Origin: Ophelia neglecta
Lineage: Eukaryota
DNA length: 64,000 bases
NCBI GenBank assembly: GCA_965285935.1
Contig: OZ260667.1
Span: forward strand, 55,304,001-55,368,000
Reading direction: 5' to 3'
The position numbers were made by a program. The first letter of the stretch is position 1, and every line of letters starts with the position of its first letter. Positions 51,901-54,900 of this stretch are shown here, piece after piece.

Positions 51901-54900
51901 GATTAAGCAGTACATGGCATAGTGGTTTGACCTTAAAATTGTAGACCAAAGTTAACCATATTCTATTTCCTACATGCTTCAAATATCTTTCTTACCACTT
52001 TCTATCAAGAGAGAAAAATGAGAGAATTAAAGCGGGAAAAAGTACTTATTTTTGTCCTTTTTTTGCTTGTATGATCAACGTAATATTCTAGAGGTGTAAG
52101 ATTTGGAACATTTTGAAAATGAAAAAGATTAAACTGGATAGGGGCAGAACTCCCATAACACTGGCTGAAATAAGAAATCAAATCAAATCAAATACAAACC
52201 AGTGGTTAAGGAAGTGGTGAAGATAGTAGTACAAACCAGTGGTCAAGGTAGTGATGAATGTAGAAGTACAAACCAGTGGTTAAGGGAGTGATGAAAGTAG
52301 TAGTACAAACCAGTGGTTAAGGAAGTGGTGAAGATAGTAGTACAAACCAGTGGTCAAGGTAGTGATGAATGTAGAAGTACAAACCAGTGGTTAAGGGAGT
52401 GATGAAAGTAGTAGTACAAACCAGTGGTTAAGGTAGTGGGGAAGATAATAGTACAAACCAGTGGTCAAAGTAGTGGTGAAGATAGTATTACAAACCAGTG
52501 GTTAAGGTAGTGGTGAAGATAGTAGTACAAACCAGTGGTTAAGGAAGTGGTGAAGATAATAGTATAAACCAGTGGTTAAGGTAGTGGTGAAGATAATAGT
52601 ACAAACCAGTGGTTAAGGAAGTGGTGAATGTAGTAGTACAAACCAGTGGTTAAGGTAGTGGTGAAGGTAGTAGTACAAACCAGTGGTCAAGGTAGTGGTG
52701 AAGATAGTAGTACAAACCAGTGGTTAAGGAAGTGGTAAAGATAGTAGTACAATCCAGTGGTTAAGGAAGTGGTTAAGATAGTAGTACAAACCAGTGGTCA
52801 AGGTAGTGGTGAAGATAATAGTACAAACCAGTGGTTAAGGAAGTGGGGAAGGTAGTAGTACAAACCAGTGGTCAAGGTAGTGGTGAAGATAGTAGTACAA
52901 ACCAGTGGTTAAGGTAGTGGTGAAGATAGTAGTACAAACCAGTGGTTAAGGAAGTGGTAAAGATAGTAGTACAATCCAGTGGTTAAGGAAGTGGTTAAGA
53001 TAGTAGTACAAACCAGTGGTCATGGTAGTGGTGAAGATAATAGTACAAACCAGTGGTTAAGGAAGTGGTGAAGATAATAGTACAAACCAGTGGTTAAGGT
53101 AGTGGTGAAGGTAGTAGTACAAACCAGTGGTTAAGGTAGTGGTGAAGGTAGTAGTACAAACCAGTGGTCAAGGTAGTGGTGAAGATAGTAGTACAAACCA
53201 GTGGTTAAGGTAGTGGTGAAGGTAGTAGTACAAACCAGTGGTTAAGGAAGTGGTGAAGGTAGTAGTACAAACCAGTGGTTAAGGAAGTGGTGAAGATAGT
53301 ATTACAAACCAGTGGTTAAGGTAGTGGTGAAGATAGTAGTACAAACCAGTGGTTAAGGTAGTGGTGAAGGTAGTAGTACAAACCAGTGGTTAAGGTAGTG
53401 GTGAAGATAGTAGTACAAACCAGTGGTTAAGGAAGTGGTGAAGGTAGTAGTACAAACCAGTGGTTAAGGTAGTGGTGAAGGTAGTAGTATAAACCAGTGG
53501 TTAAGGAAGTGGTGAAGATAATAGTACAAACCAGTGGTCAAGGTAGTGGTGAAGGTAGTAGTATAAACCAGTGGTTAAGGTAGTAGTGAAGATAGTAGTA
53601 CAAACCAGTGGTTAAGGTAGTAGTGAAGGTAGTAGTACAAACCAGTGGTTAAGGAAGTGGTGAAGGTAGTAGTATAAACCAGTGGTTACGACAGTGATAA
53701 ACGTAGTGGTACAAACCAGTGGTTAAGGTAGTGGAAGAGCTGGTACAGCTCCAGCCTTTCCTTGTATCCTGGTTTCTTGGGGATCAGTTTATGGTAAGAT
53801 GAGAAGAATTGTGAAGAGAACCCTCCGAACATCTGTGCTATGGCCAAGTCGTACTCATCATGACCATAAAAGGAGGCAGGGTCAAACACAACTGCAGAGA
53901 AAAACATGAAATAGACATTAAGAAAGTATGGTGTTGATTTGTGGCTAATTTTCTTCCGATGATATAGTTCAAGGGTGGGTGTGTTGGGAAGCAGTCAGGG
54001 GAATTGTAGGTGAAGAGCGTGTATTGTTGTATTGACGTTGTGTGACTGTCGCAGGGGGGTACATTTTTGGCACCTGTGTGTGGGGGGAGGGAGGGGGGCG
54101 TGCTTGCTTATAGAGCCCATCATGTTAAAGGATGTCATAAATCTACAGCATCCTGTGTAGGGGAGTCAAGTATCATTAAATGGCTGTTGTGTGCTTTTTT
54201 ATGCACAATATTTCCAGGAAAATAGCTGGGTAAACCGCTGGAAAAGCAGCTGGGATTAGTGCAGCAAGTGGGCTGGCAGTAGACAGCCCAGTGTCAGGGA
54301 GCAGCTGGGAAACTGGAAGCACTGGAATTGGAGGGGAATTGGAGGGGAATGGCTGTTTGATCGACAAGACTTTCAGTTGCCACTGTATGGTCCTTATCCA
54401 CGAGACTTAACTCACCTGGCCCGTCATTTATCTCCGCTGCATTTCCTCCCCAGAGGTCGCCATGTAACAGCGATGGAATGACCTCAATGTCCTTGAACAG
54501 TTGTGGTAACTTAGGTAACAAACTGGTCCAGAGCGCTCTTGCTTCACTATCACGGTACTGCAATAAATAGAAATCAAAATATATATAAAAAGGAAAAGAT
54601 GAATAAAAAGCTTGTAGCCCCTGGTGCTACACTCACGCCTCTACTTGTATTGGTGTTCCTTCCTATAAAATCATAACCTTTCTGTCAGTGTTCGACTTTT
54701 CAAGTTAACTCATTCGGTCCTATGCCTTAACAGACTTTCCTATACAAGCAAAGGCAAAGGGACAGCAAAGGGACCTTTCAACAGATTGGGCAGTCAAAGA
54801 GTCAAGGGGAGGTGGGGGTGGGGGTGGGGGGGGTGGGAGGGCGCAGTTGGAAAGAAGTTTGGGGGGGGGGGGGGAGAGGGAGGTGCACAGACTAGGGTTG

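What the first reader, a model, noticed from the sequence alone, without database searches (positions are those of the whole stretch)
52193..53750. ~40-copy 37-bp array echoing the HYLNHW codons and the GTTTGT donor of exon 7
Seen: the monomer repeats CCACTACCTTAACCACTG|GTTTGTAC, covering the conserved FN3K HYLNHW motif and a rather weak donor. TGTACCA occurs both inside the exon and 34 bp downstream in the intron, a plausible microhomology seed. The unit next to the exon (53672-53716) is the most diverged, while internal units are homogenised. The 37-bp period is exactly half the 74-bp period of the other array, which may be coincidence.
Basis: partly seen in the sequence, partly recalled or inferred. 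Interest (0 to 1): 0.72.

Follow-up and report, generated by a model that had tools for sequence, protein, structure and literature searches.

The report
Intron repeat array copying a splice junction
A short stretch spanning the end of one exon and the start of the next intron of a sugar-repair kinase gene has been copied about 41 times head to tail inside that intron, a kind of repeat already described in humans and lancelets and probably harmless.

Summary
Window 52193-53734 is a 37-bp tandem array with 41.7 copies, 91% matches and no indels. It lies on the minus strand and starts inside an exon of an FN3K/ketosamine-3-kinase-like gene.

The first 25 nt of the array are the real junction: 18 exon nt coding His-Tyr-Leu-Asn-His-Trp, plus the donor CTG|GTTTGT. 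Forty-one full units follow in perfect register, and 35 of 41 keep the exact donor 9-mer.

- The motif occurs nowhere else in the window.
- A paralog with no array shares 15 of 18 exon nt, so the exon seeded the array.
- The array cannot code: all three frames have stops, and an in-frame TAA precedes the first decoy donor.

This is a junction-spanning minisatellite. The class is known from human F7 IVS7, IFI6, CBS and LMNB2 (PMC1557585) and from amphioxus "mirages" (PMC3087553).

The TGTACCA pair is 34 nt apart, not 37, and a 12+25 origin fits better. The 37/74 relation is coincidence.

A second, 74-bp array does the same at another donor of this gene. The finding is a new member of a known kind and of modest interest. 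Donor use was not testable.

The parts
53717..53891 (-). It ends ...LFHYLNHW, with the Trp codon split TG|G.
   Evidence: tblastn with scallop proteins; Pfam PF03881, E 2.4e-23; boundaries read from sequence.
53710..53734 (-). Founder segment of the array: the last 18 exon nt plus the first 7 intron nt. The authentic donor CTG|GTTTGT has its GT at 53716-53715.
   Evidence: Exact 25-mer at the true junction. TRF places the array end at 53734, inside the exon.
52193..53709 (-). 41 full 37-nt units, all intronic. 35 carry the exact 9-mer CTG|GTTTGT, 4 have GTTTAT and 2 have GATTGT. There are 23 distinct unit sequences.
53673..53709 (-). Unit 1, the most diverged (28 of 37 to consensus), with a weakened decoy donor GTTTAT. 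It holds the in-frame TAA (53688-53686) that ends any read-through.
52193..52414 (-). Distal edge of the array: two exact copies of a 3-unit (111-bp) block holding the other diverged units.
   Evidence: The unit-type string ends HIJHIJ; identities.
52165..52192 (-). Unique intron sequence just after the array: a TTTGA x3 microrepeat followed by a pyrimidine tract ending in AG. By inference this is the ancestral continuation of the intron after GTTTGTA.
   Evidence: sequence. Ancestral status is inferred.
53737..53751 (-). Exonic palindrome GAGCTGTACCAGCTC, ending 2 nt before the array begins.
50077..50149 (-). Last coding exon (G + NHFGGGYRGSTISILKSLNKALK + stop), with acceptor tttcag|G. It completes the Trp codon only if the first donor is used.
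55985..62281 (-). Context: a second junction-spanning array of 74-bp units (48-bp variants occur). Its first unit spans the donor CCA|GTGAGT of exon 62359-62259.

Best explanation
This is a junction-spanning ("mirage"-type) intronic minisatellite.

Origin (inferred from the sequence). A 25-nt piece of DNA was duplicated in tandem. It comprised the last 18 nt of the exon (the His-Tyr-Leu-Asn-His-Trp codons) and the first 7 nt of the intron (the donor GTTTGTA). A 12-nt partial copy of the His-Tyr-Leu-Asn codons was added, giving a 37-nt unit. CCACT recurs at offsets 0, 12 and 25 of the junction and offers slippage points. Multi-unit slippage or unequal exchange then amplified and homogenised this unit to 41 copies.

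Consequence (inferred by analogy, not shown). The whole array lies downstream of the authentic donor, so it is removed with the intron as long as the first, most upstream donor is used. The 35 identical and 6 variant decoy donors would stay silent. If a decoy were used, the product would be a truncated reading frame, because an in-frame TAA sits before the first decoy.

The array most likely has no function of its own. It mainly inflates the intron, making up 43% of it.
For: **Shown**
- Array, register and exon continuity.
- The host gene is FN3K-like, with conserved exons and canonical splice sites.
- The downstream exon completes TG|G and continues NHFG..., as in scallop proteins.
- Direction is exon to array. 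The motif is conserved protein sequence, and the array-free paralogs in the same window share 15 of 18 and 12 of 18 nt of the exon part and split the same codon.
- The array cannot code: 13-17 stops per frame, with the longest open stretch 36 codons. Read-through gives ...[15 protein letters not shown].
- The transcribed strand of the array has 0 AG in 1524 nt, so it offers no acceptor.
- Both edges are diverged and the interior is homogenised. Block duplications of 111 and 222 bp are visible (identity 0.927 and 0.935 at those lags, against 0.911-0.919 at lags 1, 2, 4 and 5).
- There is no consistent constraint on the decoy donors. In the 37-bp array, 2 of 23 variant alleles fall in the 9 donor columns (5.6 expected, P 0.057). 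In the 74-bp array it is 5 of 24 (3.3 expected).
- The RNA shows no special fold (z -1.15) and there is no Rfam match in the window.

**Precedent**
- Human F7 IVS7 has a 37-bp VNTR whose first unit spans the exon 7 boundary. Its pseudo-sites are functional, but only the most upstream donor is used, whatever the repeat number (PMC1557585, abstract and passages).
- Amphioxus mirages do not disturb splicing, and their cluster edges escape homogenisation (PMC3087553, passages).
Against: - No transcript data exist here, so use of the first donor is inferred, not shown.
- The authentic donor and 35 decoys are identical 9-mers, and the donor is weak. In human IFI6 and CBS, the nearest pseudo-sites are in fact used (PMC1557585).
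- The mild deficit of variants in the donor columns of the 37-bp array (P 0.057) leaves a little room for constraint.
- The 12+25 origin rests on alignment scores of very short strings.
- The unit tree is unresolved, with 0 of 21 inner branches well supported, so the order of events cannot be read.
- The copy number of a 1.5-kb array in an assembly may be inexact.
Confidence: 0.8

Rival explanations
1. The array is a functional cis-element. Dozens of weak U1-binding sites would help recognition of the poor GTTTGT donor. Alternatively, they would tune expression through unproductive splicing to decoys followed by decay, or protect the intron from premature cleavage.
For: The donor is the weakest of the six in the gene. 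35 of 41 decoys are intact, and unit columns 24-31 never vary. Variant alleles in the donor columns number 2 of 23 against 5.6 expected (P 0.057). Any use of a decoy gives a premature stop.
Against: Homogenisation alone explains the invariant columns. The sister 74-bp array shows no deficit (5 of 24 against 3.3 expected), and its donor is strong. In F7, deleting or adding units did not change splicing (PMC1557585, section 10 passages). No conservation data are available.
Confidence: 0.1
2. One reading: a single 34-nt tandem duplication between two pre-existing TGTACCA microhomologies seeded the array.
For: TGTACCA is present at 53747-53741 and 53713-53707. In ungapped register the 12 nt upstream of the 25-mer match the unit at 6 of 12 positions.
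Against: The spacing is 34 nt, not 37, so 3 nt of indels are needed. The 34-nt segment aligns worse than the 12+25 model (23 against 31 for the consensus, 14 against 23 for unit 1). Unit 1 begins CCACTAC, the His-Tyr codons, not CCAGCTC. The array length of 1542 equals 25 + 41 x 37.
Confidence: 0.12
3. The monomer belongs to a dispersed satellite or mobile-element family that landed next to the exon and matches it by chance.
For: None found. The genome is rich in minisatellites, with 7 arrays of 250 bp or more in 64 kb.
Against: The array is contiguous and in register with the exon, and its core is an exact 25-nt copy of the junction. The exon part is ancestral coding sequence shared with array-free paralogs. 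There are no copies outside the array in the window. Of the 5 hits in the protein search, none exceeds 50% identity; the 3 fetched are unrelated repeat proteins.
Confidence: 0.02
4. The array, or its size, is an assembly artefact.
For: Long arrays are hard to assemble. The amphioxus paper reports a misassembled mirage in a genome draft (PMC3087553).
Against: There are 23 distinct unit types with ordered block duplications and diverged edges, as in real arrays. There are no N and no indels.
Confidence: 0.05

Closest known systems
Human F7 (coagulation factor VII) IVS7 37-bp VNTR (Borensztajn et al. 2006, PMC1557585; abstract and passages read)
   Same: An intronic minisatellite whose first unit spans an exon-intron boundary, so a weak authentic donor is followed by identical pseudo-donors. 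By coincidence the unit length is also 37 bp and the exon is also number 7.
   Different: F7 has 5-9 units holding only 4 exon nt. Here there are 41 units holding 18 exon nt that cover a conserved protein motif. The sequences, gene and organism are unrelated. Donor choice has been tested in F7 and not here.
Amphioxus "mirages" (Adh3, globins BflGb6/9, TnC, PGBD5), as described in PMC3087553 and PMC3902484 (passages read). The original Adh3 paper (Canestro et al. 2002) was not held.
   Same: Minisatellite-like tandem duplications of exon/intron boundaries in an invertebrate. Several can occur per gene, splicing is reported to be undisturbed, and edge units escape homogenisation.
   Different: The units reported there are 10-160 bp and the passages give few copies (3 and 6 for BflGb6). 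Here there are 41 and about 82 copies. The organism here is not amphioxus: the best exon-level matches are scallop proteins at 78-83%.
Human IFI6 (6-16) intron 2, CBS IVS13, LMNB2 and PDGF intron 4 minisatellites (listed in PMC1557585, introduction passages)
   Same: The same architecture: the donor is reiterated in the intron, with 25 pseudo-sites in 6-16.
   Different: In 6-16 and CBS the two nearest pseudo-sites are used. Here, use of any decoy meets an in-frame stop.
Intron gain by tandem duplication across AG|GT proto-splice sites (Rogers model, as discussed in PMC3087553; PMC2891723 seen in search listing only)
   Same: A tandem duplication that copies a splice signal.
   Different: No new intron or exon is created here. 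The array has no AG at all on the transcribed strand, so it cannot be exonised as it stands.

Membership tests
Junction-spanning (mirage-type) minisatellite | Head-to-tail array of a 10-160 bp unit | tested here: met
   Period 37, 41.7 copies, 91% matches, 0 indels.
Junction-spanning (mirage-type) minisatellite | The first unit spans a real exon-intron boundary, contiguous and in register with the exon | tested here: met
   18 exon nt + 7 intron nt form the first 25 nt of the array. The exon was verified by Pfam and tblastn.
Junction-spanning (mirage-type) minisatellite | The splice-donor sequence is reiterated in the intron | tested here: met
   35 of 41 units carry the exact CTG|GTTTGT; 39 of 41 keep the GT.
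Junction-spanning (mirage-type) minisatellite | Edge units escape homogenisation | tested here: met
   Unit 1 scores 28 of 37 and distal units 32-33 of 37, against 34-37 of 37 in the interior.
Junction-spanning (mirage-type) minisatellite | Normal splicing uses the authentic (most upstream) donor | not testable with these tools
   No transcript data. Inferred from the conserved downstream exon and the in-frame TAA before the first decoy.
Junction-spanning (mirage-type) minisatellite | Copy-number polymorphism (VNTR behaviour) | not testable with these tools
   Only one haplotype is in hand.
Dispersed satellite / mobile-element array | The same monomer at other, unrelated loci | tested here: not met
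   No matches outside the array in 64 kb. Of the 5 protein hits among 1.84 billion representatives, none exceeds 50% identity; the 3 fetched are unrelated repeat proteins. The rest of the genome could not be searched.
Coding tandem repeat (exonic VNTR) | An open reading frame through the array, in phase with the gene | tested here: not met
   37 is not a multiple of 3. All frames have stops and the longest open stretch is 36 codons. Read-through stops after 9 codons.
Fructosamine/ketosamine-3-kinase (Pfam PF03881), host gene | Exon translations match the family profile above the curated cut-off | tested here: met
   83.3 bits and 30.0 bits against a cut-off of 22.4, for two exons searched one by one. 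78-83% identity to scallop ketosamine-3-kinase-like proteins.

The most novel reading that the evidence does not exclude
Donor junctions may be preferred birth sites of minisatellites in this lineage, through a mutational process linked to splice sites rather than survivorship alone. On that reading, mirage formation would be a general phenomenon beyond cephalochordates and humans, and a major driver of intron growth.

The support is as follows. Two of the six donors of one gene carry such arrays, making up 43% and 96% of their introns. A third repeat abuts an acceptor. Two of the seven large arrays in the window span donors, with P about 0.0002-0.01 under uniform seeding. That estimate is post hoc, made on a window that was picked out.
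Probability: 0.2. Interest if true: 0.55.

Novelty: new member of a known kind. Interest (0 to 1): 0.3.

Why it matters
The finding adds a clear, large example of a splice-junction-copying minisatellite in an invertebrate that is neither amphioxus nor a vertebrate: 41 decoy donors here, and about 73 more at a second donor of the same gene.

Such loci are natural test beds for how the spliceosome picks one donor among many identical ones. They also show how introns can grow by kilobases from a few bases of exon.

For annotation, it warns that gene predictors may pick a decoy donor or call repeat-derived pseudo-exons. It changes no established concept.

Tried and rejected
Of 42 rows, 24 were distinct, over 37 columns. 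None of the 21 inner branches was well supported, so this was uninformative.
- **Gradient of similarity to the exon seed along the array.** None was found apart from unit 1: 23-25 of 25 throughout.
- **74-bp higher order in the 37-bp array.** Absent.
- **Sequence relation between the 37- and 74-bp monomers.** None.
- **RNA structure around the authentic donor.** Not different from shuffles (z -1.15).
- **Rfam over the whole window.** No match.
- **Protein search with the 36-aa array translation.** Only 5 weak, unrelated repeat proteins.
- **Pfam on 28 of the 134 long stop-to-stop ORFs between 14.6 and 50 kb,** to see whether other arrays sit at exons. It found only two GPCR ORFs, and nothing ties the other arrays to exons.
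- **Taxon from a GPCR ORF.** The nearest named protein is annelid, at 24%, so the species stays undetermined.
- **Literature on this in molluscs or bivalves.** Nothing was found: 0 papers held minisatellite + splice site + intron + bivalve.
- **Left out.** The spliced protein model was never joined or searched as a whole; exons were searched one by one.
- **Not opened.** Supplementary files. Those of PMC3087553 (mirage alignments) might refine the comparison.

Full report
**What is there**

TRF reports a tandem array at window 52193-53734 with period 37, 41.7 copies, 91% matches, no indels and score 2475. The region is strongly strand-skewed (GC skew +0.50 on the plus strand). On the transcribed minus strand the array is only 8.7% G.

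I cut the minus strand into 37-nt rows from 53746. Row 0 is the end of an exon plus its donor. Below it lie 41 units in perfect register down to 52193. After the last unit comes unique sequence beginning with TTTGA x3 and a pyrimidine tract.

**The host gene**

The exon translates to [59 protein letters not shown]. It matches Pfam PF03881 (fructosamine kinase) at E 2.4e-23. The upstream exon also matches the family.

I searched the gene model exon by exon.

The best relatives of the exon are scallop ketosamine-3-kinase-like proteins, at 78-83% identity over 59 aa. Mammals score about 75%. A GPCR ORF in the window has its nearest named relative in an annelid, at only 24%. The window therefore comes from an invertebrate, probably a lophotrochozoan, whose species I did not determine. 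It is not human.

tblastn with three named scallop proteins, together with reading of the boundaries, places the minus-strand exons as follows:

| Exon | Window coordinates |
|---|---|
| 2 | ...-63928 (cut by the window end) |
| 3 | 62359-62259 |
| 4 | 55734-55566 |
| 5 | 55143-55090 |
| 6 | 54557-54416 |
| 7 (the exon in question) | 53891-53717 |
| 8, coding part | 50149-50077 |

The Trp codon is split TG|G, and the last exon begins G-AAC-CAC-TTT-GG (W)NHFG, as in the scallop proteins.

Two more diverged FN3K-like paralogs lie in the window, at about 14565-10726 and 6571-2816. They have the same split codon, the donor ATG|GTAAAT, a last intron of about 370 nt and no array.

**The exon seeded the array**

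The 25-mer made of the last 18 exon nt and the first 7 intron nt is found at up to 3 mismatches in 41 places: the real junction and 40 of the 41 units. All lie inside the array, against 0 expected. Eleven units carry it exactly.

- The consensus unit matches the exon row at 31 of 37 positions ungapped, and the last 25 are exact.
- The exon part is ancestral coding sequence. The array-free paralogs share 15 of 18 and 12 of 18 of these nucleotides, and HYLNHW is conserved in the scallop proteins.
- The direction is therefore exon to array, not a satellite that happens to resemble the exon.
- A search of 1.84 billion representative proteins with the 36-aa translation of the array gave only 5 hits, at 35-50% identity. 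The three I read are unrelated repeat proteins.
- The rest of this genome could not be searched, so absence of the monomer elsewhere is shown only for the 64-kb window.

**Anatomy of the unit**

The 37-nt unit is best read as a 12-nt partial copy of the His-Tyr-Leu-Asn codons placed ahead of the 25-nt junction segment.

- The first 12 nt of the consensus match those codons at 10 of 12 positions, against 6 of 12 for the in-register exon sequence.
- Unit 1 begins with the intact His-Tyr codons.
- The array length of 1542 nt equals 25 + 41 x 37.

The intronic copy is simply the end of one unit abutting the start of the next. I note a 15-nt palindrome in the exon ending 2 nt before the array and a pentanucleotide microrepeat at the far boundary. 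Both are possible slippage promoters, but that is inference only.

**Array dynamics**

There are 23 distinct unit sequences among the 41 units.

- Unit 1 is the most diverged, at 28 of 37. Four distal units score 32-33 of 37 and the interior scores 34-37 of 37.
- The last six units are an exact 3-unit block repeated twice.
- Mean identity rises at lags of 111 bp (0.927) and 222 bp (0.935), but not at 74 bp (0.911, against 0.915 at 37 bp).
- A maximum-likelihood tree of the units is unresolved, with 0 of 21 inner branches supported, so the direction of growth cannot be read.
- Diverged edges with a homogenised interior are the usual signature of unequal exchange. The same pattern is described for amphioxus mirages (PMC3087553, passages).

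**Consequences for splicing (inferred)**

Thirty-five of the 41 units carry the exact 9-mer CTG|GTTTGT of the authentic donor. Four have GTTTAT and two have GATTGT.

This donor is the only one of the six in the gene without GT[A/G]AG. The others are ATG|GTAAGA, CCA|GTGAGT, TTG|GTAAGC, GAG|GTGAGT and CAG|GTGAGT.

Because 37 = 1 mod 3, the TTAAC of the Leu-Asn codons is read as TAA in unit 1. Read-through gives ...[15 protein letters not shown], and the stop lies upstream of even the first decoy donor. Use of any decoy would therefore truncate the protein and lose the conserved last 23 residues.

- All three frames have 13-17 stops.
- The transcribed strand of the array has no AG in 1524 nt, so no acceptor or pseudo-exon can form.
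- The RNA shows no unusual fold and Rfam finds nothing in the window.

I infer that the first donor is used and that the array is spliced out as 43% of a 3.57-kb intron. No transcript data were available to show this.

**Is there constraint on the decoys?**

Variant alleles are somewhat under-represented in the nine donor columns of the 37-bp array: 2 of 23, against 5.6 expected, P 0.057. They are not under-represented in the 74-bp array: 5 of 24, against 3.3 expected. I see no consistent evidence of selection on the decoys.

**The second array**

The 74-bp array at 55985-62281 has the same architecture. Its unit holds about 37 nt of the end of exon 62359-62259, the donor CCA|GTGAGT and about 35 nt of intron.

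- The decamer GTGAGTATGG occurs 74 times, including the authentic site.
- The spacing is mostly 74 nt (52 times) or 48 nt (10 times).
- The array fills 96% of a 6.5-kb intron.
- The two monomers are unrelated, so the 37/74 relation is coincidence.

Two of the seven arrays of 250 bp or more in the window span donors. Under uniform seeding this has P between 0.0002 and 0.01, depending on assumptions. The estimate is post hoc, on a window that was picked out, and the count of 20 donors assumes seven in each paralog.

**Comparison with what is known**

Borensztajn et al. 2006 (PMC1557585; I read the abstract, outline and passages) describe the human F7 IVS7 37-bp VNTR.

- Its first unit spans the exon 7 boundary (4 exon nt + 33 intron nt, 5-9 copies).
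- Its pseudo-sites are functional, but only the most upstream donor is used.
- Deleting or adding units did not change the choice of donor.

The same paper lists other cases. IFI6 (6-16) has 25 pseudo-sites and CBS IVS13 has 15-20 units; in both, the two nearest pseudo-sites are used. In LMNB2 (100 bp x 10-15) only the authentic donor is used, and the paper says the situation is similar for PDGF intron 4 (81 bp x 16-18).

In amphioxus, tandem repeats spanning exon-intron boundaries were named "mirages". They are reported for Adh3, globins, TnC and PGBD5, and are said not to disturb splicing (PMC3087553 and PMC3902484, passages). The original Adh3 paper was not held.

My searches for the same thing in molluscs or bivalves found nothing (one search found "mirage" minisatellite papers only for amphioxus among relevant hits). 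The library is incomplete, so this is not proof of absence.

**Verdict**

The microhomology seed is not supported.

This is a new, unusually large member of a known class of junction-spanning minisatellites, most likely neutral. Interest is modest. The recurrence at two donors of one gene is the most interesting aspect and deserves a genome-wide test.

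Noticed in passing
window 55985-62281 (minus strand), exon 62359-62259: A 74-bp array (with 48-bp variant units) whose first unit spans the donor CCA|GTGAGT of another exon of the same gene. There are 74 exact copies of the donor decamer, and the array fills 96% of a 6.5-kb intron.
   Followed up: partly
window 50152-50431 and 50446-50576: A 147-bp x 1.9 tandem duplication ends within about 3 nt of the acceptor AG of the last exon, but does not demonstrably copy it. An 11-bp x 12 array lies just upstream.
   Followed up: partly
window about 2816-6571 and 10726-14565 (minus strand): Two further, more diverged FN3K-like paralogs in tandem. 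They have the same intron position after the ...YLNQW / ...YITQW exon, the donor ATG|GTAAAT, last introns of about 370 nt and no arrays.
   Followed up: partly
window 19547-20557 (-) and 42809-43960 (+): Two long single-ORF rhodopsin-family GPCR candidates (Pfam 7tm_1, E 7e-14 and 4e-11). The nearest named relative of the first is an annelid protein at 24% identity.
   Followed up: partly
window 28348-30903: A complex 25/50/88-bp array of about 2.5 kb, with plus-strand frames open for up to 215 codons (repeats such as DHQQALPWAVTK). No Pfam family was found, and no exon could be tied to it.
   Followed up: partly
window 26220-26524 and 41859-42253: A 33-bp x 9.2 array and a 42-bp x 9.4 array, open in several frames. 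Their meaning is unknown.
   Followed up: no
window 52005-52187 (minus strand): Directly after the array, a pyrimidine tract plus AG is followed by a 60-codon open frame. It would be in phase with the exon if used as an alternative acceptor. It has no homology and there is no evidence of use.
   Followed up: no
window 53737-53751 (minus strand): A 15-nt palindrome (6-bp arms, 3-nt centre) in the exon, ending 2 nt before the array starts.
   Followed up: no
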